Source: an uncultured virus (IMG/VR IMGVR_UViG_3300010340_000980) (Duplodnaviria > Heunggongvirae > Uroviricota > Caudoviricetes). From it: 64,000 nucleotides of DNA. The DNA is taken from the IMG/VR virus record IMGVR_UViG_3300010340_000980; one strand, 5' to 3'. This document shows, piece by piece, positions 4,011 through 46,927 of the stretch. A program made the translations under genes and the position numbers. The first letter of the stretch is position 1; the number at the start of each line of letters is the position of its first letter. The notes beneath the pieces are model-generated. The model ran no database searches. It was not told the origin of the DNA and saw only the letters and a list, made by a program, of their open reading frames with translations.

Positions 4011-4260
4011 CTATATTCTTATAGAAGAAAAATTCCTTATTCTTTAATTTTTTCAAAATATATAATAATTCTTTATCTTTAATTTTTCTCCAATCAAGAA
4101 ATACTACTTCCTCTTCATTATATAGAAATCCTTTACCAACACGATTGATCTTACCAACATTACTATTGAAGTGCAAAAATCCATCATGAGAGAATTTTTT
4201 ACAATTCTCATTGTAATTTTTAAGTATTTGAGATATCAAATGCATTCTAATAAAATTCAT
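3967..4260 (-). CDS. hypothetical protein
   Basis: 97-aa ORF overlapping the next gene. Confidence 0.55.
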   Translation of the reverse strand: MNFIRMHLISQILKNYNENCKKFSHDGFLHFNSNVGKINRVGKGFLYNEEEVVFLDWRKIKDKELLYILKKLKNKEFFFYKNIDGKFYKTKPKNVKT

Positions 4261-6559: not shown

Positions 6560-6588
6560 TAAAAAAGAAGGGATTAACCCTTCTTTTC
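6560..6588. terminator. bidirectional terminator
   Basis: aaaagaaggg-attaa-cccttctttt inverted repeat between convergent genes. Confidence 0.65.
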
Positions 6589-7389
6589 TACAAATTCATC
6601 ATATTTTTCAATAACTCGATTCGAGTCTCTTTTGTTCCAAGCCTTGTTTAGAAAAAGAAGTTTATTCTTATCAATTCCACAATTGCGGTTAGAAATATTA
6701 CCCTCATTGAAAAGAGCAATCATTTCATCCATACTCAAAGTCTTATGCTTACTATCAAATTTAGGATCAGGATGTGACCATCCAAATTTAAACAACCAAT
6801 TTAAAAGAGCCTTTTTATTGACATCTTTATAATCTTCTGTCGTTCCATTGCCACTTCTTTTTGAAAGTTTTTTATTTCCTTCGAAAAGGAGTCCGGCATG
6901 TATAACTTCAGGGAATTGCTTATCACCTTCAACTTTACAAATTTCATCCCAAATTCTTTTTTGTTTATCAAGGTTAGAAATATGATCCACACCACGAATG
7001 ATGTGAGTAATATCATAGTCATAATCATCTAAAATAGAACAGAAGTTATAAGTTGGAAATCCATTATTTCTAAGAATAACCATCTTATATTCTCCCATAT
7101 CAAGTTCGTAACCATTTTCAGTTTTGGTTCCGATCTTTTCAGCAACCTCCTTATATCGATCTAATCTATCAGATTGCTTGAAAGTCAAATCATAATCAAG
7201 ACCAAACTGGTCCATTTGATCAAAGATATAGTCAATATACTCTTGCTTATTTCTTTCTTGATCAGTATCATCGATGCGAAGTATAAATTGACCACCATTG
7301 GCTCTCGCCATCAAATAGTTAAGAAGAGATGTACGGAGATTTCCGATTTGAATATATCCCGTTGGGGATGGCGCAAAGCGACATTTCAT
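6574..7389 (-). CDS. glutamyl-tRNA synthetase catalytic domain only (GluRS/GluQ-RS-like, 271 aa)
   Basis: RFAPSPTG, HIGH-like QIGN, LRIDDTD, ITHIIRG.DH, KLSKR; no anticodon-binding domain. Confidence 0.85.
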   Translation of the reverse strand: MKCRFAPSPTGYIQIGNLRTSLLNYLMARANGGQFILRIDDTDQERNKQEYIDYIFDQMDQFGLDYDLTFKQSDRLDRYKEVAEKIGTKTENGYELDMGEYKMVILRNNGFPTYNFCSILDDYDYDITHIIRGVDHISNLDKQKRIWDEICKVEGDKQFPEVIHAGLLFEGNKKLSKRSGNGTTEDYKDVNKKALLNWLFKFGWSHPDPKFDSKHKTLSMDEMIALFNEGNISNRNCGIDKNKLLFLNKAWNKRDSNRVIEKYDEFVEKKG

Positions 7390-7558: not shown

Positions 7559-8092
7559 TTAAACATTGAAATACAATGCCCACCCAAGTGGATAGATATT
7601 CGTGTTTCTTTTTTGCCATTTTTTAGTATCTTTCATTAGATATAGATAAATAGAGTCTTTTCTTTTATCACCTGTAGCTCCTATACAATATTCATCATAG
7701 TCTATTTTTATATCTTTTAATATCCATAATAATCTTGAATAAACTTCAATTGCTTCCCCTTTATCACTTGGATCCTCATAGTTTACTTGATTTCTATCAA
7801 ATAGAGTAAATGATATATGATAGATTTTTGTATTTGGCTCTTTATGTAATTCTAATTTATAATCACTTTCCGATTTAGATTTGAAAAGTATTAAATAATT
7901 ATCACCGTTTTTTTCAACATCATAATCAGTTTTAATACCATCAAAAACCTCCTCATTTACTTTTTTAAATCCATTTAGTACAAAATCTTTAGATTTCGAA
8001 TATATTCTATATTTTTCTTTTCTATCTAAGTAAGGATTATTATTATCATTTATGTATGATGTATAATGATCATATTTTACTAAAATATTCAT
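7559..8092 (-). CDS. hypothetical protein (late-type promoter)
   Basis: 177-aa ORF with TAATATATA upstream. Confidence 0.65.
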   Translation of the reverse strand: MNILVKYDHYTSYINDNNNPYLDRKEKYRIYSKSKDFVLNGFKKVNEEVFDGIKTDYDVEKNGDNYLILFKSKSESDYKLELHKEPNTKIYHISFTLFDRNQVNYEDPSDKGEAIEVYSRLLWILKDIKIDYDEYCIGATGDKRKDSIYLYLMKDTKKWQKRNTNIYPLGWALYFNV

Positions 8093-8102
8093 AGTTTATA
8101 TA

Positions 8103-9707
8103 TTAACCATTCCAACCTTCTTTAAGACTGACTGTTTTATTGAAAGCCTTACCACACTTGTCTAAAATGTAATATCCTTTACGCATCATTTGAACAGCAT
8201 CTTTCACATTTAAAACGTGTGGTTCAAAAACAGCTTTGTTATTCACAACTAATGAATTAGGATTCAAATCAGATATAAAATCATCTCCAGGAGTCTCAAC
8301 ACTGAATAATCTATCATATTCATTAACAGGTATATTAATACCATGTTCAATAGATACCCAGTGAATTGTACCTTTAATCTTTCTATCTAAAACCATTCCT
8401 GACTTAGAAAGAGGATCATAAGTACACTTGATTTCAATGACATCACCATTTAAATCCTTAATAACTTCTTCCGCCTTAATAACATACGCACCTTTCAATC
8501 TAACTTCACCACCTAATTTCAATCTGTGAAACTTGTTATTAGCTTCTTCTCTGAAATCTTCCTTTTCAATCCACAACTCACCACTGAATGGAATCATTCT
8601 CTTACCAGCAGTTTCATCTTCTGGATTATTCTCTACTTCAACCCATTCAGTGCCGCCAGTCCAGTTAGTTATAGTAACCTTTACGGGTTCCATAACGCCC
8701 ATTAATCGATTAGATTTTTTGTTTAGATCATTTCTAAGACACTCTTCTAAAAGAAGATATGAAACAACCGAATCTCTTTTAGTTACAGAAATTCTATCAC
8801 AAAAATCTTTAATTGACTCTGGTGTAAATCCACGTCTTCTTAATCCAGAAATAGTTGGCATTCTTGGATCATCCCATCCGTCAACAAATCCTTCTTCAAC
8901 TAATCTCTTCAATTTCCTTTTAGACATTACCATATAGTCAATATTCAATCTAGCAAACTCAGTTTGTACAGGAAGATCAGATGGTAAAAAGTTTTTCAAT
9001 TTGGTCAATATCCAATTATAAAATTCTCGATGTGTTTCAAATTCTAGTGTACATAAAGAATTAGAAATTTTTTCTAAAGCATCGGAAATAGGGTGAGCAT
9101 AATCATACATTGGATAAATACACCATTTATCACTTGTTCTATAATGTGTATGTTTTTTTATTCTATATAAGACCGGGTCTCTCATTAACATATTTGATGA
9201 TTCTAAATCAATTTTTGCCCTTAATGTAGCACCGCCTTCCTTATAATCTCCATTTTTCATTCTCTCAAAAAGAAGCAAATTTTCCTCAATGCTTCTGTTC
9301 CTAAATGGACTTTCAGTGCCTATGGTAAATGGAGTTCCATTATATCTTGAAAGTTCTTCAGAACTCAACTCACAAACATAAGCATCCCCATTACTAATTA
9401 GTATCTTGGCAAATTCAAAAAGAATTTCATAATAATCAGATGTATAAAATACATTTGATGGTTTGAATCCAAGCCATTCTATATTTTCAATAATTGGATT
9501 TATAAAATCAACCTTTTCAGTTGTTGGATTTGTATCATCGAATCTTAAATTACACTCAACTCCATATTTTTCCGCTAATCCGAAATTTAAACAGATTGAT
9601 TTAGCATGGCCAATATGCAAATATCCATTATTTTCTGGGCTAAATCTAAATTTTAGATTCTTTTCTTTAAATTCATCTTCTATAATTTTTTCTATAAAAT
9701 TTTTCAT
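8103..9707 (-). CDS. glnS: glutaminyl-tRNA synthetase
   Basis: RFSPENNGYLHIGH, RFDDTNP, WCIYPMYD, MSKRKL, GWDDPRMPTISG, KGTIHWVS. Confidence 0.97.
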   Translation of the reverse strand: MKNFIEKIIEDEFKEKNLKFRFSPENNGYLHIGHAKSICLNFGLAEKYGVECNLRFDDTNPTTEKVDFINPIIENIEWLGFKPSNVFYTSDYYEILFEFAKILISNGDAYVCELSSEELSRYNGTPFTIGTESPFRNRSIEENLLLFERMKNGDYKEGGATLRAKIDLESSNMLMRDPVLYRIKKHTHYRTSDKWCIYPMYDYAHPISDALEKISNSLCTLEFETHREFYNWILTKLKNFLPSDLPVQTEFARLNIDYMVMSKRKLKRLVEEGFVDGWDDPRMPTISGLRRRGFTPESIKDFCDRISVTKRDSVVSYLLLEECLRNDLNKKSNRLMGVMEPVKVTITNWTGGTEWVEVENNPEDETAGKRMIPFSGELWIEKEDFREEANNKFHRLKLGGEVRLKGAYVIKAEEVIKDLNGDVIEIKCTYDPLSKSGMVLDRKIKGTIHWVSIEHGINIPVNEYDRLFSVETPGDDFISDLNPNSLVVNNKAVFEPHVLNVKDAVQMMRKGYYILDKCGKAFNKTVSLKEGWNG

Positions 9708-9726
9708 ATTTTAATTTTTTAATATT

Positions 9727-10548
9727 TCAAGAGTTTATCCACCTCCTTATTGTGCTTCTGGTAACACCATATTTTTTTCCAACTTCTGTATAGTTTGATA
9801 GTTCAACTTCTTTGATTAAATCTTTTTTATTTGGTCTCTTTATTTTTCTTCTTTCTAAATCTTGACAATTTCTACATCTTTTTGATTTGTAAGAAATCAC
9901 ATTTCCACAAGAACATTTTGGTTTTTTACTTTCTATATTTCTACCGGCAAATGTTTCAAGTGTTGAATTGCAATTTGGACAAATTATTTGAAGATTTTCT
10001 ATTCTATTATCATTATTTATCCCATTTATATGATCTATTATCAGTGACATTTTTTTACCATGCCAATTCTCATCCTGACCACATAATTCGCATTTCCTCT
10101 CTTTTATTTTCTCCTCAAAGAGTCTTCTTTTAAGTGTTGATCTATCGTAATTCGAATTTTCTGTAAGAACTTCTGATAGTTTAACTTTTTCTTTTTTACC
10201 AAATCTGCTTCTTTTATTGAAAGACTCGAAATGTGAAATATCAATATTATATTTTTTGATATATTTATTTAGAGTTCTGAAATTACAACCGTGTGGTGTT
10301 AAACTCATTTTTATTAGAACATCAGTTTGATTAATTGACTCAGATATAAGCTTCGATAGATTATCTTTTTGCCAATGGTCTTTAACATAATCAAATTTGA
10401 AATTAATTTCATATTTTTCTAAATAAAATTTTAACGAATTATAGGAGGAGGCACCAACCTTTAATCCTAGTTTTTCAATTACTTCCTTAAATGTAGAAGA
10501 ACCTTCAACACATTTTTCCAAATTTTCTCTTGTCCATCTCTTTTCCAT
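9727..10548 (-). CDS. HNH homing endonuclease
   Basis: CELCG...DHING..NDNR.ENL...CPNC; C-terminal HTH. Confidence 0.9.
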   Translation of the reverse strand: MEKRWTRENLEKCVEGSSTFKEVIEKLGLKVGASSYNSLKFYLEKYEINFKFDYVKDHWQKDNLSKLISESINQTDVLIKMSLTPHGCNFRTLNKYIKKYNIDISHFESFNKRSRFGKKEKVKLSEVLTENSNYDRSTLKRRLFEEKIKERKCELCGQDENWHGKKMSLIIDHINGINNDNRIENLQIICPNCNSTLETFAGRNIESKKPKCSCGNVISYKSKRCRNCQDLERRKIKRPNKKDLIKEVELSNYTEVGKKYGVTRSTIRRWINS

Positions 10549-10616
10549 TATGTAGTGTTTTTTAAGTATATATTAAAATGGTGACTTAAAAACCGTTATT
10601 TATTGTTCCCAAATTG

Positions 10617-10687
10617 TTCCTCCATCTCGTACTGACCGAGATCCCAGTGTTTCAAAGACACTGATGCTTCCTTCACACCCTGGAGGA
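10617..10687 (-). tRNA. tRNA-Gln(UUG), atypical T-loop
   Basis: Acceptor TCCTCCA/TGGAGGA; anticodon arm AGTGT-CTTTGAA-ACACT; T-loop GTCAGTA. Confidence 0.7.
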
Positions 10688-10694
10688 GTGTTTG

Positions 10695-10768
10695 CTATCC
10701 GGGTAGGGTTTGAACCTACAAAAACTAAGGTCAAAGCTTAGTGCGTCTGCCAATTTCGCCACCGGACA
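10695..10768 (-). tRNA. tRNA-Gln(UUG)
   Basis: Acceptor TGTCCGG/CCGGATA; anticodon arm CTAAG-CTTTGAC-CTTAG; GGTTCAAACCC T-arm. Confidence 0.9.
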
Positions 10769-10775
10769 ATATTAG

Positions 10776-10848
10776 ATGCTCTGACAGGGTATGATCCTGT
10801 AATATCTGAGTCAAAGTCAGATGTGATAGCCAATTTCACCACAGAGCA
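10776..10848 (-). tRNA. tRNA-Gln(UUG)
   Basis: Acceptor TGCTCTG/CAGAGCA; anticodon arm TCTGA-CTTTGAC-TCAGA; T-loop ATCATAC. Confidence 0.85.
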
Positions 10849-10850
10849 AT

Positions 10851-10883
10851 AAAAAACCCGAATCAATTAGATTGATTCGGGTT
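10851..10883 (-). terminator. attenuator terminator upstream of the tRNA-Gln cluster
   Basis: AACCCGAATCAAT-CTA-ATTGATTCGGGTT followed by a U-tract ending 2 nt before the first tRNA. Confidence 0.9.
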
Positions 10884-10912
10884 CAGTACTTTTAGACAAT
10901 ACTATACCATTA

Positions 10913-10966
10913 TCAATCTGTTCGATTAATTTGTTGTTGCTGTTGGTATTGAGTAAAAGTTGTCAT
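10913..10966 (-). CDS. Gln-rich attenuator leader peptide MTTFTQYQQQQQINRTD
   Basis: 17-aa uORF with 6 Gln codons (5 CAA, 1 CAG); its stop overlaps AGATTGAT, which is complementary to the terminator 5' arm. Confidence 0.85.
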   Translation of the reverse strand: MTTFTQYQQQQQINRTD

Positions 10967-10970
10967 ATTG

Positions 10971-11012
10971 TTTATATATTTTTTATTATGTCTTTGTTTT
11001 ACAAATATACGG
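10971..11012 (-). promoter_or_regulatory. tandem host-type (TAtaTTTG) and AATATATA promoter boxes of the Gln leader
   Basis: ccgTATATTTGtaa ... aAATATATAaacaatATG. Confidence 0.65.
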
Positions 11013-11019
11013 ATTTTTA

Positions 11020-11529
11020 TTAAAAAATGTCTTCAACAATTTTCTTAAAAGTATTCATCAATATATCTAAATTAATATTTTCTTTAAATAAAATAAATGA
11101 TTGATTTCCATTTTCAACATTTGTGTATAATTTATAACTATAGTCTTTTTCTATTTCTTTAGAAAATCTCCAATACAGTTTTTTTCTACCTTCTGATTCA
11201 TCTAAAGATCCAAAAATTAAAGCATCTGGATCCTTAGTCTCAATCAAGTACTTCATTCCTTTTCTAACGGTTGATAAAACTGACATCTTACCGGTATTAA
11301 AATTAGTAAGTCCTGGATTCATAACATTTGTATTTTGATCATATAAATAAAATTTATAAGTCCAAATATTATTATCTCTGTTAATACAGTCTATTTGATA
11401 AACTTTTTCATCTACTGAAAAAAGACCTATCAGTTTATTAGACCTCTCAATCCATCTAATTTCTACATCAGAATCATAAGATTCTTTTAATTTGTCAAAA
11501 AAGATTTCAAGACTTTTAATGATTTTCAT
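11020..11529 (-). CDS. hypothetical protein
   Basis: 169-aa ORF; ends with an R.KLY motif region loosely similar to 7559..8092. Confidence 0.65.
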   Translation of the reverse strand: MKIIKSLEIFFDKLKESYDSDVEIRWIERSNKLIGLFSVDEKVYQIDCINRDNNIWTYKFYLYDQNTNVMNPGLTNFNTGKMSVLSTVRKGMKYLIETKDPDALIFGSLDESEGRKKLYWRFSKEIEKDYSYKLYTNVENGNQSFILFKENINLDILMNTFKKIVEDIF

Positions 11530-11554
11530 TTCATATATATCATTTTTCTATTTG

Positions 11555-11642
11555 TGTAGATGTGAGGAGTCGAACCTCAATTTACCTTACGGGAATCGAA
11601 CCCATACGGATGCCTCCGTTAAGTCACCAGACTACATCTACA
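11555..11642 (-). ncRNA. tRNA-like RNA with two T-arms and no anticodon loop
   Basis: Acceptor GTAGATG/CATCTAC-A, short D-arm, ACGGA-GGCA-TCCGT hairpin, then GGGTTCGATTCCC and GAGGTTCGACTCCTC. Confidence 0.55.
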
Positions 11643-12246
11643 TTATAATTATTTGTTTAATTTTATTTTTTATATTTTTACCACCATTTGTTTCTAATGT
11701 TGCATTGCAATTTGGACAAACAATTCTTAAATTTTCTAACCTATTATCGTCATTTACACCATTTATATGATCAAGAATTAAAGACATTTTTTTACCTCTC
11801 CAATTTTCATCTTGACCACATAATTCACACTCTTTCTTTTTAATTTCATTGCTAAATAAAACTTGTTTTATTTTTCTTCTGTCTGTAATAGAATTTTCTA
11901 CAAAAATATCATTTAATTTAGTGTTTGAATTCTTTTTTCTTTCTATATAAAAATGTGAAGTTTCTAATTTTTTTATTTTTATCCATTTTTTAATGGTATT
12001 TCTGTTACCGCCTGTTGTCTTTAATTTTAAATTTCTACATATATCAACTAAGTTTTTTGACTCTAAAACCACCTTATCAAACTCTTCACTTTCATAAAAT
12101 GAAGATGAATTAAATTTTAATCCAAGTTTCTTTGCTTTATTACCAATAGATCTTGGTGTTCTATTTAATTCCTCTGATAAAATTGTTGGTCCTTTAATTT
12201 CATAAAAATCAATCAATATTCTAATTTCAACCTCTGTCCAGTTCAT
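11638..12246 (-). CDS. HNH homing endonuclease
   Basis: CELCGQDENW..KKMSLILDHING.NDDNRLENLRIVCPNC; paralog of 9727..10548. Confidence 0.9.
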   Translation of the reverse strand: MNWTEVEIRILIDFYEIKGPTILSEELNRTPRSIGNKAKKLGLKFNSSSFYESEEFDKVVLESKNLVDICRNLKLKTTGGNRNTIKKWIKIKKLETSHFYIERKKNSNTKLNDIFVENSITDRRKIKQVLFSNEIKKKECELCGQDENWRGKKMSLILDHINGVNDDNRLENLRIVCPNCNATLETNGGKNIKNKIKQIIIM

Positions 12247-12306
12247 AACTTTTTTCTTTTATATATTAAAAAATACTTACACCCTGGACAGAGTTTGAAA
12301 GGTCAG

Positions 12307-12380
12307 CGGACATGAAGGGATTCGAACCCTCGATCTTCTCAGTGACAGTGAGATATGTTAGGCCTCTACACCACACGTCC
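12307..12380 (-). tRNA. tRNA-Asp(GUC)
   Basis: GGACGTG/CATGTCC-G; anticodon arm TCTCA-CTGTCAC-TGAGA; GGTTCGAATCC. Confidence 0.92.
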
Positions 12381-12386
12381 GGTTAG

Positions 12387-12458
12387 TAGGGTATACCAGA
12401 TTCGTCCAAAACCAAGCGCACTAACTAACGTTAGTTAGATGGACTTTGCTAATACCCT
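12387..12458 (-). pseudogene. degenerate tRNA-Pro copy
   Basis: Ends nearly identical to the tRNA-Pro at 12742; palindrome CTAACTAACGTTAGTTAG in the D-loop; 3' anticodon strand and 5' T-stem deleted. Confidence 0.7.
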
Positions 12459-12463
12459 ATTTG

Positions 12464-12552
12464 CGGACACACCCGGACTCGAACCAGGATCTACCCCACG
12501 CACGGGGCCACTCTAACCATCGACGATTTTCGTCTAATTAAGCTATATGTCC
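12464..12552 (-). pseudogene. tRNA-Asp-like RNA with aberrant anticodon loop and D-loop hairpin insertion
   Basis: GGACATA/TGTGTCC-G acceptor; intact T-arm; GACGA-AAA-TCGTC insertion; CCCC-GTGCGT-GGGG 6-nt loop. Confidence 0.6.
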
Positions 12553-12557
12553 TTTTG

Positions 12558-12645
12558 CAGTCCCAACGGGAATCGAACCCGCTATTCAGCTTTCACCTAC
12601 TTCCTGATAGACAGTCAGGTGCACCAACCATTATGCGCTAGGACT
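12558..12645 (-). tRNA. tRNA-Asp(GUC) with long variable region
   Basis: AGTCCTA/TGGGACT-G; CCTGA-CTGTCTA-TCAGG; ~20-nt variable region. Confidence 0.8.
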
Positions 12646-12656
12646 AAATTTATTTG

Positions 12657-12736
12657 TCGCAGAGGTGAGAATCGAACTCACCACTCTAATGCTTCCAATG
12701 CACTGAGGCCTTTTTCATTACCTTGGTCACTCCGCG
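12657..12736 (-). tRNA. tRNA-Pro(UGG), atypical D-arm
   Basis: CGCGGAG/CTCTGCG-A (C1-G72, A73 Pro identity); loop ATTGGAA; GAGTTCGATTCTC. Confidence 0.7.
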
Positions 12737-12741
12737 ATATG

Positions 12742-12815
12742 TAGGGTATGCCAGATTCGAACTGACGATCTCTTGGTCCCAAACCAAGCGCGATACCGGA
12801 CTTCGCTAATACCCT
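12742..12815 (-). tRNA. tRNA-Pro(UGG)
   Basis: AGGGTAT/ATACCCT-A; CTTGG-TTTGGGA-CCAAG; CAGTTCGAATCTG. Confidence 0.9.
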
Positions 12816-12872
12816 TTTTTCTAATTCTATGCAAGGCCCAAGCCTTCTATGAATTAGTAACAGTCTCACTCG

Positions 12873-12944
12873 CAGTCCGTACGGAAATCGAATCCGCTTC
12901 TTCCGGTTGACAGCCGGATATTTATACCAACATACCCACGGACT
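12873..12944 (-). tRNA. tRNA-Asp(GUC)
   Basis: AGTCCGT/ACGGACT-G; TCCGG-CTGTCAA-CCGGA; GGATTCGATTTCC. Confidence 0.85.
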
Positions 12945-12960
12945 ATTTTTTAGATAAACT

Positions 12961-12997
12961 TACAAATATATTTCAAATTTTCTTAACTTCCAAATTT
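12961..12997 (-). promoter_or_regulatory. Bacteroidota-type promoter (-33 TTTG / -7 TAtaTTTG) directly upstream of the Asp/Pro tRNA cluster
   Basis: aaaTTTGgaag...aaaTATATTTGtaag on the minus strand. Confidence 0.6.
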
Positions 12998-13016
12998 ATT
13001 TTTACTTTTTAAAAAC

Positions 13017-13052
13017 AAAAAACCCAGTTAATCTTTTCAGACTAACTGGGTT
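13017..13052 (-). terminator. attenuator terminator upstream of the Asp/Pro tRNA cluster
   Basis: AACCCAGTTAGTCT-GAAA-AGATTAACTGGGTT followed by a U-tract. Confidence 0.9.
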
Positions 13053-13075
13053 CAGTTCTTTATAATGTCTCTACA

Positions 13076-13180
13076 TTACATAAACATGCAGTTAGCCTCT
13101 ATCGTATCAGGATCCTGATCCTGATCGACTACAACTTGTGGTTGCGGTTGGCTAACAAATATGTTTACAAATGTTTTCAT
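13076..13180 (-). CDS. attenuator leader peptide MKTFVNIFVSQPQPQVVVDQDQDPDTIEANCMFM
   Basis: 34-aa uORF rich in Pro/Asp/Gln/Val; contains AGGCTAACTG, complementary to the terminator 5' arm CAGTTAGTCT. Confidence 0.8.
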   Translation of the reverse strand: MKTFVNIFVSQPQPQVVVDQDQDPDTIEANCMFM

Positions 13181-13264
13181 TTCTTTATATATTAAAAAGT
13201 TTTTGTCTCTTTTGATTTTATATTACAAATATACGGAAAGTTTTTAAAACTTCCAAATTTATTT

Positions 13265-13606
13265 TTATTTTTTTGTAAAAATTGGTTCTGTTCTTGAACC
13301 AACTGATACCCACCTTACATTCAACTTTCCTTCTTTTACTAAAAGACTCAGACAAACTGATATCAATTTATAATGATAATAATAGTTAGGATGCAATGTG
13401 ATTACATGCTTAAATGAACTAAAGTAGTTCGTTGTTCTAACTATAGGATTAAGTGTGTTAAACTTATTCATAAAGTCTTCAATAGTAAACTCGTTTCCAA
13501 GTTTCGATTCAACAAATGGGTAAACATATCGACCAAAATAATCTGGTTGAACTTGTTCTTTTGCCCATCCTGTATAATTTGGGTTCCAAAGTGATTCGTA
13601 TTTCAT
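13265..13606 (-). CDS. hypothetical protein
   Basis: 113-aa ORF with TAtcTTTG promoter upstream. Confidence 0.65.
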   Translation of the reverse strand: MKYESLWNPNYTGWAKEQVQPDYFGRYVYPFVESKLGNEFTIEDFMNKFNTLNPIVRTTNYFSSFKHVITLHPNYYYHYKLISVCLSLLVKEGKLNVRWVSVGSRTEPIFTKK

Positions 13607-13727
13607 AACTTTAAAATTTATGAAAACTATCGTGTTTCTGTTACGCCACCACTGACTATTTTATTTTCATCAGTTATCAGTTCTGATTTCTTTTACAAAG
13701 ATAAGGAATTTTTTTGAACCACCAAAA

Positions 13728-14123
13728 TTAAATAGTATTTTTAATAATAACTCCACCTTTTGGATTATATTTTGGTAATCCAGTATGAATCTTCTTCAAA
13801 TATCTTTCATACTTTCTAAGAAGTTCTCTGATTTTTGGATCACTTGTATCATTGTAATCAAGTATACTTACTATAATTTGTTCTTTTTCATTATCTGGTG
13901 CTGATTCAATTTTTTCCTTCAGTAATGAAACCGTATCATCACTTACCCATAATTCGGATGGATTTATATATCCATCTAAAATAGATTGATAAAACTTGCT
14001 TTTTAGACCTTCTTTATTTCCAAATTTTGAATTTGCAATAATTTGAGTTTTATTAAATACTTTTTCACCAATTTTTTCTTTTAAAGAATTAATAATTTGA
14101 TCTTGTTTATTTTGTTTAGTCAT
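13728..14123 (-). CDS. hypothetical protein
   Basis: ORF; start moved to the ATG downstream of the tRNA. Confidence 0.6.
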   Translation of the reverse strand: MTKQNKQDQIINSLKEKIGEKVFNKTQIIANSKFGNKEGLKSKFYQSILDGYINPSELWVSDDTVSLLKEKIESAPDNEKEQIIVSILDYNDTSDPKIRELLRKYERYLKKIHTGLPKYNPKGGVIIKNTI

Positions 14124-14136
14124 AAATTTTAAATAG

Positions 14137-14210
14137 TGGGCCATGCTGGGTTCGAACCAGCGACCTTCTCGTTATGAGCGAGTTGCTCTGACCGACTGAG
14201 CTAAAGGCCC
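14137..14210 (-). tRNA. tRNA with CAU anticodon (probably Ile2, lysidine-modified)
   Basis: GGGCCTT/ATGGCCC-A acceptor; CTCG-CTCATAA-CGAG; body resembles ileX-type tRNAs. Confidence 0.85.
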
Positions 14211-14320
14211 TTGATTAATTTCTTTTACAAATATAATCAAAAAAGTTTACAAAAAAACATTTTTTGAAAATACTTTTCTAATATATAGTATAGAGGATAA
14301 AATAAAAAAATAACTAAACT

Positions 14321-14863
14321 ATGGAAAGGGAAGTATTAGAGAAATTTTTAGAAGATGGTTACTCATTAAACAAAATTTCAAAAGAAACTGGGAAATCATT
14401 AACTACAATAATATATTGGAAGGAGAAATATCAACTAAAATCAAATTATAAAAATTTTAAAAATCTTGAAAAAAGTGAATACGGTGAAACAAGATTTTGC
14501 CAAAGATGTCAAAAAGATGTTAAAACAGAAAATTTTTATCAAAGAAGAGGAAGAGAAAATAGCTCACCATATTGTAAACCATGTACAAATGAGCAAACAA
14601 TTGAAAGAACTAGAAAATTAAAGACTCAAATGATTAAGTATAAAGGAGGTTGTTGTGTTAGATGTGGGTATGATAAGTATCAAGGAGCTCTAGAGTTTCA
14701 TCACTTAGACCCAAAAGAGAAAGACTTCAATCCCTCACATTTAAAGAAATATTCTTTTGATGATAGAATAAAGAATGAACTTGATAAATGTATTCTTGTT
14801 TGTGCAAATTGTCACAGAGAGATACACTTCGAAATAAGTGAAAAACAAAAAGAGACACTCTAA
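14321..14863 (+). CDS. HNH homing endonuclease
   Basis: HTH, CxxC..CxxC, GGCCVRCGY....ALEFHH.DP..K....ELDKCILVCANCHRE.H. Confidence 0.9.
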   Translation: MEREVLEKFLEDGYSLNKISKETGKSLTTIIYWKEKYQLKSNYKNFKNLEKSEYGETRFCQRCQKDVKTENFYQRRGRENSSPYCKPCTNEQTIERTRKLKTQMIKYKGGCCVRCGYDKYQGALEFHHLDPKEKDFNPSHLKKYSFDDRIKNELDKCILVCANCHREIHFEISEKQKETL

Positions 14864-14877
14864 AGTGTCTCTTTTTT
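14848..14877. terminator. bidirectional terminator
   Basis: aaagagacact-ctaa-agtgtctcttt hairpin between the HNH gene and the tRNA. Confidence 0.7.
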
Positions 14878-14878
14878 G

Positions 14879-15157
14879 TGATCCCGACAGGATTCGAACC
14901 TGTGACCCACAGCTTAGACATACCACTATAGCTTTCGCTACCTATTGTTTGTGGTCTGGACTATATCATCACCTTCAACCTAGTTGTTCAGGTGCCTCCC
15001 CCTTAGTCTCTACACACTCCCTCATTTGAGGTTTGGCTCGGTATTACCATCAACATTACTTGGAAGGTTTCACCGAATTCGAGAAGTTCTATTCTAACTA
15101 TTTCTAATTAGATGCCCCCTTTGAGGCTGTTGCTCTATCCAGCTGAGCTACGAGACC
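14879..15157 (-). tRNA. tRNA-Arg(UCU) interrupted by a group I intron (exons 15157-15124 and 14918-14879)
   Basis: Spliced product GGTCTCGTAGCTCAGCTGGATAGAGCAACAGC-CT^TCTAA-GCTGTGGGTCACAGGTTCGAATCCTGTCGGGATCA. Confidence 0.9.
14919..15123 (-). mobile_element. group I self-splicing intron (IC3-like, ~205 nt) after U33
   Basis: P GAATTCGGTGAAACC, Q AATACCGAG, R GTGTAGAGACTA, S ATGATATAGTCC; P1 GCCU/GGGC with U-G wobble; terminal G. Confidence 0.9.
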
Positions 15158-46525: not shown

Positions 46526-46875
46526 ATGAACACAATTTTAGATTTCGCATCTAGTTACTGGTGGATTGTAGCCATTTTGCTCTCCGCTGTATTTTACAAA
46601 TCCATTTTCCGCCTTTTCGGTATAGTAATTGTACCAGAAGATAAAATCGGGCTTGTTACAAAAAAATTCGTTCTGTTCGGAGCGAACAAAGAACTTAGTG
46701 GTGATCGTATCATCGCAACAAATGGTGAAGCTGGTCTTCAATCAGACTATCTAGCACCAGGGGTGGAACATCAATAGATGGTTTACTTGGACTTCAAATC
46801 TTAGACAAAATGGGTAAAAGCATTGCTCCTACTCAGGAAGTAAAAGAAATTGAAGAACCAAAGTCTAAGAAATAA
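46526..46875 (+). pseudogene. SPFH/band-7 (flotillin-like) gene with large internal deletion
   Basis: N-terminus ..VPEDKIGLVTKKF..IIATNGEAG.Q...LAPG joined out of frame to a C-terminal tail GGTSIDGLLGLQILDKMGK..KK. Confidence 0.7.
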
Positions 46876-46887
46876 TTTAGACTTTAA

Positions 46888-46927
46888 TAAAAAACCCCTG
46901 TCAATTAACTTTGACAGGGGTTTTTTG
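46888..46927. terminator. bidirectional terminator
   Basis: aaaaaacccctgtcaa-ttaact-ttgacaggggtttttt. Confidence 0.85.

What the first reader, a model, noticed from the sequence alone, without database searches (positions are those of the whole stretch)
8103..11012. Gln-sensing ribosome-dependent attenuator controlling three phage tRNA-Gln genes and GlnRS
Seen in sequence (minus strand), in order: promoter boxes; an unannotated uORF MTTFTQYQQQQQINRTD (10966-10913; 6 Gln codons, 5 of them CAA); a strong terminator (10883-10851); then, 2 nt later, three tRNA-Gln(UUG), an HNH gene and glnS. The end of the uORF (AGATTGAT-aat-GGT, containing the stop codon) is complementary to the terminator 5' arm (ACC-cga-ATCAATCT). 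There is no room for a promoter between the terminator and the first tRNA. Established: this is the trp/his-type attenuation layout, in which stalling on control codons frees the antiterminator. Inference: the phage senses shortage of charged tRNA-Gln (starvation or host tRNA-cleaving defence) and responds by transcribing replacement tRNAs and the cognate synthetase. I know of no description of leader-peptide attenuation governing phage tRNA genes.
Basis: partly seen in the sequence, partly recalled or inferred. Interest (0 to 1): 0.95.

Follow-up and report, generated by a model that had tools for sequence, protein, structure and literature searches.

The report
Leader-peptide switches gating phage tRNA genes
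A huge phage places a tiny glutamine-rich test gene and a switchable transcription stop in front of its glutamine tRNA genes, and its relatives do the same with matching codons before almost every tRNA block, so these phages probably make tRNAs only when ribosomes run short of them.

Summary
On the minus strand, a 17-codon ORF with 6 Gln codons (10966-10913) is followed by a strong terminator (10883-10855). tRNA-Gln(UUG) starts 2-3 nt after the T-run. Only two tRNA-Gln are canonical; the third is a divergent cloverleaf.

The ORF, terminator and antiterminator pairing recur in 13 distinct leaders from related huge uncultured phages, including all 8 glnS-found relatives that have upstream sequence.

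It is one of seven classes. In four related genomes (385-642 kb), seven tRNA arrays each have their own leader ORF, and its codons mirror the tRNAs behind it. At the codon-anticodon level the true leader-array pairing is the best of 5040 permutations in all four genomes. Each terminator's 5' arm has a complementary strand inside its own leader (rank 1-2 of 5040). A second unit of this kind, with Asp/Pro/Gln codons, lies in the window at 13180-13021.

The mechanism is classical ribosome-mediated attenuation; tRNA genes as the target are new. Eight literature searches found no description. Earlier unchecked notes of this scan report similar gates in other phages.

Weaknesses: no expression data, weak antiterminator covariation within the Gln class, and promoter-like boxes in the window that may bypass part of the control.

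The parts
11002..11009 (-). Promoter-like box TATATTTG (TAnnTTTG type), 36 nt upstream of the leader ATG. It is followed by AAATATATAAAC, a variant of the TTTAATATATA motif.
   Evidence: That this is the Bacteroides -7 element is recalled, not tested.
10913..10966 (-). Leader ORF MTTFTQYQQQQQINRTD* (17 codons plus TGA).
   Evidence: Conserved in 13 of 13 distinct related leaders.
10931..10951 (-). Regulatory codons: CAA TAC CAA CAG CAA CAA CAA (6 Gln, read by the UUG anticodon of the tRNAs behind).
10924..10930 (-). Segment 1, ATTAATC. It pairs with GATTGAT in a weak hairpin of -3.9 kcal/mol.
   Evidence: On 13 leaders 95.6% of cells are paired, and 6 of 500 shuffles do as well.
10906..10919 (-). 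Segment 2, the antiterminator 5' strand AGATTGAT-aat-GGT, which contains the TGA stop codon.
10884..10905 (-). Spacer that forms the apical hairpin of the antiterminator. The whole nascent-transcript structure is -17.4 kcal/mol.
10851..10883 (-). Intrinsic terminator AACCCGAATCAAT-cta-ATTGATTCGGGTT plus T-run. Its 5' arm and loop form segment 3.
   Evidence: Covariation: 98.2% of cells paired, 7 of 13 pairs with compensatory changes, 0 of 500 shuffles.
10775..10848 (-). tRNA-Gln(UUG), copy 1.
   Evidence: 56.5 bits.
10694..10768 (-). tRNA-Gln(UUG), copy 2.
   Evidence: 54 bits.
10618..10687 (-). Divergent tRNA-like cloverleaf with a UUG anticodon loop. Not called by ARAGORN or Rfam.
   Evidence: The same element is kept in L042.
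9727..10548 (-). HNH endonuclease gene, absent at this place in 8 relatives. It is preceded by a TTTTAATATATAC motif.
8103..9707 (-). glnS, glutamine--tRNA ligase.
13076..13180 (-). Second leader ORF MKTFVNIFVSQPQPQVVVDQDQDPDTIEANCMFM* (Asp, Pro and Gln codons). A TATATTTG box lies at 13233-13226.
   Evidence: Conserved in 10 distinct leaders.
13021..13052 (-). Terminator of the second leader. GGCTAACTG inside the ORF is complementary to CAGTTAGTC of its 5' arm.
   Evidence: Duplex -14.1 kcal/mol, z = -2.5.
12963..12998 (-). Promoter-like boxes (TAAATTTG, TATATTTG) between the second terminator and tRNA-Asp. Present only in the window, this is a possible bypass promoter.
   Evidence: Absent in L001, L002, L036, L139 and L140.
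12306..12944 (-). tRNA array Asp(GUC), Pro(UGG), Asp, Asp.

Best explanation
This is a ribosome-mediated (leader-peptide) transcription attenuator that gates the phage's tRNA-Gln genes and, in relatives, glnS directly.

How it would work. Steps marked shown are read from the sequence or computed from it.
- Transcription starts at a promoter-like box upstream (inferred).
- A ribosome translates the 17-codon leader (inferred).
- If Gln-tRNA(UUG) is plentiful, the ribosome runs to the TGA stop. That stop lies inside the antiterminator strand AGATTGAT..GGT, so the ribosome covers the strand. The terminator hairpin then forms and RNA polymerase stops 2-3 nt before the first tRNA. The geometry is shown; the outcome is inferred.
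- If charged tRNA-Gln is short, the ribosome stalls on the CAA/CAG run, at least 13 nt upstream of that strand. The strand pairs with the terminator's 5' arm and loop as soon as these emerge, giving a -17.4 kcal/mol structure against -16.6 for the terminator. Transcription then reads on into the tRNA-Gln genes and the genes behind them.

The product, more tRNA-Gln and GlnRS, relieves the stall, so the loop is a negative feedback on charged tRNA-Gln supply.

The same design, with other codons, heads six further tRNA arrays in related phage genomes and the Asp/Pro array in this window. The phage clade therefore appears to make each tRNA set on demand.
For: (1) Anatomy at the stated coordinates.

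(2) Conservation.
- 13 of 13 distinct related leaders keep the ATG, a Gln run (CAA/CAG only) and a stop in or next to the AGATTGA motif. A terminator follows 22-33 nt after the stop.
- Of 9 non-self loci found through glnS at 57% identity or more, 8 have upstream sequence, and 8 of those 8 have the leader.

(3) Terminator covariation: 98.2% of cells paired, 7 of 13 pairs with compensatory changes, 0 of 500 shuffles.

(4) Antiterminator.
- Window duplex: -11.6 kcal/mol, z = -4.4.
- Gln class: mean z = -4.4 over 13 leaders.
- RNAalifold predicts the same helix on leaders truncated before the 3' arm.
- The divergent L037 has a different terminator arm (CATTCGACC) and a matching ORF end (GGTTGAATG).
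- In L036 a 1-nt change moves the stop codon while AGATTGA is kept, which points to an RNA-level constraint.

(5) Geometry: 6 of 6 Gln codons leave the strand free when a ribosome stalls on them, and a ribosome on the stop codon covers 14 of 14 nt of the strand. The constrained folds agree.

(6) Generality.
- I curated 43 leader units in 7 classes.
- Leader residues against downstream tRNA identity: the true pairing ranks 1, 1, 1 and 2 of 5040 permutations in four genomes.
- At the codon-anticodon level it ranks 1 of 5040 in all four. For example, AUA codons sit before tRNA-Ile(UAU) and AUU codons before tRNA-Ile(GAU).
- Leader 3' region against its own terminator arm: ranks 1, 1, 2 and 2 of 5040.
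- All 43 units pair better than their shuffle mean, with mean z = -2.9.
- The antiterminator is in the nascent-transcript MFE in 32 of 43 units.

(7) Share of tRNAs covered: 37 of 43, 50 of 53, 28 of 52 and 32 of 34 ARAGORN-called tRNAs in the fetched regions of the four genomes lie directly behind a leader.

(8) Coding signal: pairwise differences by codon position are 727, 763 and 1108.
Against: - There is no evidence of translation, termination or read-through. The RNA-library contigs that matched came from relatives and cannot show ends or levels.
- Within the Gln class the antiterminator is conserved rather than covarying: 2 pairs have double changes, 76 of 500 shuffles do as well, and 83% of cells are paired. 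RNAalifold gives it only -1.67 kcal/mol.
- 11 of 43 units, 5 of them in the Gln class, lack the antiterminator in the nascent MFE.
- In three classes (Phe/His/Lys, Glu/Tyr, Asn/Leu/Val/Thr) a ribosome parked on the stop codon overlaps the strand by 0-2 nt, so termination would depend on a ribosome in transit.
- In the window a promoter-like box follows the Asp/Pro terminator, and a TTTTAATATATA motif precedes the HNH gene. Part of the downstream genes may therefore escape the switch.
- The four genomes are related, so their permutation results are not independent.
- Third-position enrichment is modest, and the pairs counted are not independent.
- Whether transcription and translation are coupled in the (unknown) host, or which RNA polymerase reads these units, is unknown.
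Confidence: 0.8

Rival explanations
1. The small ORF plus terminator is an independent short transcription unit, either a micropeptide gene or a small RNA. Its terminator only insulates the tRNA genes, which would be transcribed constitutively by read-through or from elsewhere. The codon content would then be coincidence or low complexity.
For: In the window the Asp/Pro unit is followed by a promoter-like box, so promoter-sORF-terminator could stand alone there. The genome is 27% G+C, so CAA runs are cheap.
Against: - There is no room for a promoter between the terminator and tRNA-Gln.
- The leader-to-array match is the best of 5040 permutations at the codon level in four genomes.
- The only Gln-dense stretch in six frames of the window is this ORF.
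- The complementary strand tracks each terminator.
- Outside the regulatory residues the peptide sequence is poorly conserved, which is not what a functional peptide would show.
Confidence: 0.05
2. The leader works as an RNA that binds tRNA directly, without translation, in the manner of a T-box. The codon-like triplets would pair with anticodons of uncharged tRNA to stabilise the antiterminator.
For: The targets (tRNA, aaRS) are those that T-boxes sense or control, and the leader holds many cognate triplets.
Against: - There is no T-box or other Rfam family match at E up to 1 in 8000-15000.
- All 43 curated units begin with ATG and run in frame through the cognate triplets to a stop, though an ATG start was a criterion for curating them.
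- In the Gln class, indels before the Gln run are in multiples of three.
- The stop codon sits in or just after the antiterminator strand.
- Up to six different amino acids are sampled in one leader, which a single specifier loop cannot do.
Confidence: 0.05
3. The switch is real but senses general ribosome availability or transcription-translation coupling, for example a host shut-off or the stage of infection. It would not sense the charging of particular tRNAs, and the codon bias would be secondary.
For: An eighth unit of the same design (MKTLHTYKNVIDWM*/MRALHTYKITIDLG*) precedes a protein operon rather than tRNAs. Without a ribosome the antiterminator forms by default. Earlier unchecked scan notes describe all-amino-acid leaders before tRNA arrays in other phages.
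Against: A general sensor needs no class-specific codons, yet the codon-level match to the array behind each leader ranks 1 of 5040 in four genomes. This includes the AUA/AUU split between the two Ile tRNA arrays.
Confidence: 0.1

Closest known systems
Classical leader-peptide attenuators of amino-acid operons (trpL, hisL, pheL, leuL; the multivalent thr and ilv leaders). Named from established knowledge. The general mechanism also appears in the abstract of PMC1183508, seen only in a search listing.
   Same: A short leader ORF with a run of regulatory codons, an intrinsic terminator, a mutually exclusive antiterminator whose formation depends on where the ribosome sits, and several amino acids sampled in one leader, as in thr and ilv.
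   Different: - The genes controlled are tRNA genes, so the switch measures the product it controls.
- In the Gln unit the stop codon lies inside the antiterminator strand, and segment 1:2 is weak (-3.9 kcal/mol). The no-ribosome default is therefore read-through, not termination.
- There is no match to the Rfam leader families.
- It occurs in phage genomes, as a set of at least seven codon-matched paralogous units.
Attenuators before aminoacyl-tRNA synthetase genes: pheST in gamma-proteobacteria, and predicted trpS and leuS attenuators in Streptomyces (PMC1262725, passages read).
   Same: A leader-peptide attenuator sensing a charged tRNA and controlling the cognate synthetase. In 8 relatives glnS follows directly behind the gated tRNAs, and in L037 it follows the leader with no tRNA between.
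   Different: Here tRNA genes come first. In the window an HNH gene with its own promoter-like motif lies between the tRNAs and glnS.
T-box riboswitches (established knowledge; mentioned in PMC1262725).
   Same: They sense tRNA charging and control aaRS genes through a terminator/antiterminator choice.
   Different: T-boxes bind tRNA directly and need no translation. No T-box match was found, and the element here is an ORF.
Leader-ORF terminator gates before tRNA arrays in other uncultured phages, noted earlier in this scan. These are AI notes, unchecked and unpublished.
   Same: A small ORF plus a switchable terminator at the head of phage tRNA arrays. Several of the notes report codons matched to the array.
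   Different: There is no sequence similarity to this window. Here a single-amino-acid leader (Gln) belongs to a set of seven class-specific leaders per genome, two of which stand in series.

Membership tests
Ribosome-mediated leader-peptide transcription attenuator (mechanistic class) | Short ORF with start and stop codons in the transcribed leader | tested here: met
   Window 10966-10913. The ORF is kept in 13 of 13 Gln leaders, and all 43 curated units hold an ATG-to-stop ORF by construction.
Ribosome-mediated leader-peptide transcription attenuator (mechanistic class) | Regulatory codons cognate to what is controlled | tested here: met
   6 of 16 codons after the ATG are Gln, all readable by the UUG anticodon. 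This is the only such site in the window. The class-wide match ranks 1 of 5040.
Ribosome-mediated leader-peptide transcription attenuator (mechanistic class) | Intrinsic terminator between the leader ORF and the controlled genes, with no promoter after it | tested here: met
   The gap to the tRNA is 2-3 nt. This is not met for the window's Asp/Pro unit, where a promoter-like box follows the terminator.
Ribosome-mediated leader-peptide transcription attenuator (mechanistic class) | Antiterminator that excludes the terminator and is exposed or hidden according to ribosome position | tested here: met
   Duplex and permutation tests and constrained folds. Covariation within the Gln class is weak.
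Ribosome-mediated leader-peptide transcription attenuator (mechanistic class) | The leader is translated, and read-through rises when the cognate charged tRNA is scarce | not testable with these tools
   Only assembled contigs of RNA libraries were available, and they came from relatives.
Described Rfam leader families (His, Trp, Thr and Leu leaders and others) | Match to the family covariance model | tested here: not met
   cmscan of 8000-15000 at E up to 1 returned only tRNA and chance-level hits.
T-box riboswitch | Stem I specifier and T-box sequence (Rfam model match) | tested here: not met
   No T-box hit at E up to 1.

The most novel reading that the evidence does not exclude
These huge phages run a closed-loop, codon-resolved tRNA-on-demand circuit. 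At least seven paralogous leader peptides each sample the codons read by the tRNA array behind them. Two of them stand in series: the Asp/Pro/Gln leader comes first, then the Gln leader. The same switch also gates glnS and, in relatives, RNA-ligase and RNA-repair-type genes. The circuit would let the phage detect loss of particular host tRNAs, whether from a codon-usage mismatch with a 27% G+C genome or from host anticodon nucleases, and replace or repair exactly those tRNAs.
Probability: 0.5. Interest if true: 0.95.

Novelty: new variant of a known kind. Interest (0 to 1): 0.88.

Why it matters
How phages regulate their own tRNA genes is largely unknown, and the genes are usually treated as constitutive cargo. 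A set of codon-matched attenuators would show that a virus measures the decoding capacity of the infected cell codon by codon and adjusts its tRNA, synthetase and perhaps RNA-repair supply accordingly.

It would also be a case of leader-peptide attenuation controlling tRNA genes, the molecules the sensor itself reads. Eight full-text searches found no described example.

It gives testable parts for work on phage-host conflict over tRNAs. The leaders, short and modular, could also serve as natural sensors for the charging of specific tRNAs in Bacteroidota-type hosts.

Tried and rejected
- **Whole genome of the window:** none is held.
- **Expression data:** one run search and one laying. The four RNA-labelled runs gave only assembled contigs, and those matching the leader or the tRNAs carried flanks unlike the window, so they come from relatives. 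They show neither transcript ends nor levels, and I draw no conclusion from them.
- **MAFFT alignment of the leaders (A1):** it mis-registers terminators of different stem length. I replaced it with a covariance-model alignment (R1, A3).
- **Automatic choice of the longest sORF before each terminator:** it picked wrong frames in 7 Gln-leader cases. The units were then curated by start coordinate. Rows with no tRNA behind them were not used in the tests: WIN 176, L003 2105 and 5716, L005 2431, L036 5535, L120 6659, L122 846, L124 4965 and 8345, and L127 4085, 17994, 29055, 40899 and 49305.
- **More distant phages:** loci with tRNA-Gln near glnS at 46-53% GlnRS identity have no Gln-rich sORF (L007, L015, L020/L021/L038, L032, L033). 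Upstream sequence was read in L007, L015, L020, L027 and L032 and showed no leader or terminator. The system is therefore clade-limited.
- **Weak model hit at window 46819-46926:** this is an ordinary bidirectional terminator between convergent genes.
- **TAnnTTTG boxes:** only mildly enriched in the window, 138 against 114.9 +/- 11.1, with 1 of 100 shuffles reaching that count. They do not by themselves establish a promoter.
- **Sigma-70-type scan:** 40 sites found against 42 expected, so it is uninformative.
- **Literature:** eight searches and a term search inside PMC7162821 (0 occurrences of attenuat, leader or terminator) found no description of leader-peptide attenuation of tRNA genes. 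Subscription-only papers and supplements were not seen.


Full report
**1. What is in the window**

On the minus strand a TATATTTG box lies at 11009-11002. It is followed by an 18-codon frame, ATG...TGA, at 10966-10913, encoding MTTFTQYQQQQQINRTD* with five CAA and one CAG.

Twenty-nine nt after the stop comes a hairpin, AACCCGAATCAAT-cta-ATTGATTCGGGTT, with a T-run. The terminator scan places it at 10884-10854 with 14 pairs. My own scan gives 10883-10855, at -16.6 kcal/mol.

tRNA-Gln(UUG) begins at 10848 and a second copy lies at 10768-10694 (ARAGORN; Rfam 56.5 and 54 bits).

An HNH gene follows at 10548-9727 (PF01844), and then glnS at 9707-8103 (TIGR00440, 651.7 bits against a cut-off of 425.8).

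Over six frames of the 64-kb window, the only seven-codon windows with at least five Gln lie in this ORF. The window is 27% G+C.

**2. The alternative structures**

The ORF end CAGATTGATAATGGTA pairs with AACCCGAATCAATCTA, the terminator's 5' arm and loop, at -11.6 kcal/mol. This is z = -4.4 against 200 dinucleotide shuffles, none of which is as good.

I folded the transcript only as far as the terminator loop, which is what exists before the 3' arm is made. That gives a -17.4 kcal/mol structure in which this helix is closed by a spacer hairpin.
- Masking a ribosome on Gln codon 9 or 12 leaves the structure intact.
- Masking a ribosome on the stop codon removes it and leaves the terminator arm free.
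- The full-length MFE shows the terminator plus a weak ATTAATC/GATTGAT hairpin of -3.9 kcal/mol.

So the layout is that of a leader-peptide attenuator, with one difference from trp. Without any ribosome the antiterminator, not the terminator, is favoured during transcription.

**3. Relatives**

blastn against the phage collection found the leader and terminator in two uncultured phage genomes of 642 and 635 kb, LR756502.1 and LR745206.1.

A glnS-based search is blind to the leader.
- In IMG/VR it gave 37 loci. The best 80 metagenome loci were kept.
- Nine non-self loci have GlnRS at 57% identity or more. Eight of these have upstream sequence, and all eight carry a Gln-rich sORF and terminator.
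- A leader-pattern search added three more contigs.

In all there are 13 distinct leaders. Examples: MTTSFQQQQQQQINRTD, MTTTQQIQQQQINQTD, MRTTTQYQQQQQINPTD, MRIVISYQQQQQQIDRTD, MSQTQTHIQQLQQQFDTKG.

- Only CAA and CAG occur in the Gln runs, and length differences before the run are in whole codons.
- In L036 a one-base change shifts the frame after the run, so the stop moves 7 nt downstream while AGATTGA is kept. This points to an RNA-level constraint on that motif.
- In eight relatives glnS follows the tRNAs directly.
- In L037 the leader and terminator are followed by a PF18143 RNA-repair-type HAD gene and glnS, with no tRNA.
- More distant phages that have tRNA-Gln near glnS lack any such leader.

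**4. Structure statistics for the Gln class**

All counts are on a covariance-model alignment of the 13 leaders.

| Structure | Cells paired | Pairs with compensatory changes | Shuffles as good |
|---|---|---|---|
| Terminator | 98.2% | 7 of 13 | 0 of 500 |
| Antiterminator | 83% (13-55% when slid) | 2 | 76 of 500 |
| Segment 1:2 hairpin | 95.6% | 2 | 6 of 500 |

The antiterminator is therefore conserved rather than covarying inside this class. The variable terminator positions are the basal ones. The apical TCAATCT, which must pair with both partners, is nearly fixed. RNAalifold on leaders cut before the 3' arm predicts the same helix, but weakly at -1.67 kcal/mol. The clearest co-changes come from two leaders:
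- L037: GGTTGAATG with CATTCGACC.
- L001: CAGATTGATG with CGTTAGTCTG, through G-U pairs.

**5. The finding is one of a set**

The window holds a second unit.
- Its parts are a TATATTTG box (13233-13226), an ORF MKTFVNIFVSQPQPQVVVDQDQDPDTIEANCMFM* (13180-13076), and a terminator (13052-21).
- Behind it lie tRNA-Asp, Pro, Asp, Asp.
- It is the only place in the window with at least 9 of 12 residues in {D, P, Q}.
- Ten distinct homologues exist.

I located all tRNAs in four related genomes, fetched the arrays, and listed every terminator within 150 nt upstream of a tRNA. Each had a small ORF before it.

| tRNA array | Leader peptide motif |
|---|---|
| Phe/His/Trp/Lys | ..THKHFSKSNKWFSN.. |
| Arg/Ser | ..TSKSSSSRSS.. 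|
| Glu/Tyr | ..SYYYEE.. |
| Ile(UAU)/Gly/Ala | ..ISIAIIAGGAGS.. |
| Asn/Leu/Val/Ile(GAU)/Thr/Met | MTTMNLNMNMNLTVV.. |

With Asp/Pro and Gln this makes seven classes and 43 curated units.

| Permutation test (rank of the true pairing out of 5040) | W01 | W02 | G001 | G002 |
|---|---|---|---|---|
| Leader residues vs tRNA identities | 1 | 1 | 1 | 2 |
| Leader codons vs codons readable by the array's anticodons | 1 | 1 | 1 | 1 |
| Leader 3' region vs its own terminator arm | 1 | 1 | 2 | 2 |

- Ile codons split as AUA before tRNA-Ile(UAU) and AUU before tRNA-Ile(GAU).
- All 43 units pair better than their shuffle mean, with mean z = -2.9.
- 32 of 43 have the antiterminator in the nascent-transcript MFE.
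- The four genomes are related, so these are repeated views of one evolutionary pattern rather than four independent tests.
- In the fetched regions 37 of 43, 50 of 53, 28 of 52 and 32 of 34 ARAGORN-called tRNAs lie directly behind a leader.

**6. Series arrangement and local differences**

In LR756502, LR745206, G001, G002, c5048 and c2795 the Gln leader follows the Asp/Pro array with no promoter box. The Asp/Pro leader itself contains Gln codons. The two attenuators therefore stand in series, and the first also samples the codon of the array behind the second.

In the window, and in L036, L042 and L128, the Gln leader has its own TAnnTTTG box.

Two features of the window weaken the control there:
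- A promoter-like pair of boxes lies between the Asp/Pro terminator and tRNA-Asp (12998-12963). It is absent in relatives.
- A TTTTAATATATA motif precedes the HNH gene. The same motif lies 11-41 nt upstream of 17 of 65 long ORFs in the window, so it is probably a phage promoter.

**7. Mechanism and its limits**

Shown:
- the parts, their order and their conservation;
- the complementarity;
- the geometry. For example, a stop-codon ribosome covers 14 of 14 nt of the Gln antiterminator strand, and 6 of 6 Gln codons lie far enough upstream to leave the strand free.

Inferred:
- the ORFs are translated;
- RNA polymerase and the lead ribosome are coupled;
- stalling raises read-through.

In three classes the antiterminator strand lies 20-45 nt before the stop codon, so a parked ribosome does not cover it. 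There the decision would depend on a ribosome in transit.

The RNA-library contigs that matched come from relatives and show nothing about transcript ends.

**8. Comparison with what is known**

The mechanism is that of the classical amino-acid-operon attenuators. The multi-amino-acid leaders resemble the thr and ilv leaders (established knowledge). Attenuators before synthetase genes are known or predicted: pheST, and Streptomyces trpS and leuS (PMC1262725, passages read).

No Rfam leader family or T-box matches. What is different is the target, tRNA genes, and the genome-wide set of codon-matched paralogues in a virus.

Eight full-text searches and a term search in the huge-phage paper PMC7162821 found no description. 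That paper (passages read) says the genomes above 634 kb are predicted to infect Bacteroidetes. The link to LR756502 and LR745206 rests on their lengths only, because the accession LR756502 does not occur in its main text.

Earlier notes of this scan report leader-ORF/terminator gates before tRNA arrays in other uncultured phages. They are unchecked AI notes on unrelated sequence, so the scan has met this kind of element before on other DNA. I treat them as leads, not as support.

**9. Verdict**

It is a new variant of a known regulatory kind. It remains untested by experiment.

Noticed in passing
L120 (LR756502.1) 6659-6756 and L127 (LR745206.1) 4085-4179: An eighth leader of the same design (MKTLHTYKNVIDWM* / MRALHTYKITIDLG*, with ATTGACTGG complementary to the terminator arm CCAGTCAAT) stands before a protein operon, not before tRNAs. 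The operon holds a small ORF, a class-II aaRS core fragment of about 210 aa (PF13393 tRNA-synt_His) and two PF09414 RNA-ligase proteins. These are possibly tRNA-repair genes under the same kind of switch.
   Followed up: partly
L037 377-2526: In a more distant phage (GlnRS 57% identical) the Gln leader and a terminator of different sequence are followed by a PF18143 HAD_SAK_2 (RNA-repair HAD) gene and glnS, with no tRNA between.
   Followed up: partly
window, e.g. 10576-10560, 12275-12262, 13195-13184, 8103-8094 (minus strand); 17 of 65 long ORFs: The motif TTTAATATATA lies 11-41 nt upstream of many start codons, including the leader ORFs. It is probably a phage-specific promoter, and in the leaders it stands in tandem with the TAnnTTTG box.
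   Followed up: partly
window 10620-10560 versus L042 2975-3060: L042 has a tRNA-Gln(CUG) after the divergent tRNA-like element. The window keeps only its first few bases and then has the HNH gene, so the HNH insertion seems to have removed that tRNA.
   Followed up: no
window 12222-12301, 11555-11641, 12440-12560; L120 2090-2175; L127 24170-24260: The arrays hold further tRNA-like sequences that ARAGORN does not call. Examples are His- and Tyr-anticodon cloverleaf-like stretches in the 'gaps' after terminators, and a 29-bit Rfam tRNA hit at 11555-11641. The tRNA counts are therefore lower bounds.
   Followed up: no
window 6574-7389 (minus): A 271-aa GluRS/GluQRS-like catalytic-domain protein (TIGR00464 at 222 bits, below its cut-off) has its own TATCTTTG and ATATATAA boxes. 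It lies downstream of glnS and ends at the terminator 6585-6565.
   Followed up: partly
window 14880-15100 (minus): A structured, G+C-richer stretch ends in a tRNA-like T-arm (GGTTCGAATCC) and a terminator (14873-14850). It has no Rfam match above chance and its identity is unknown.
   Followed up: no
L126 (G002) 1633: ARAGORN calls a tRNA with a CUA anticodon (amber suppressor type) standing alone, with no leader before it.
   Followed up: no
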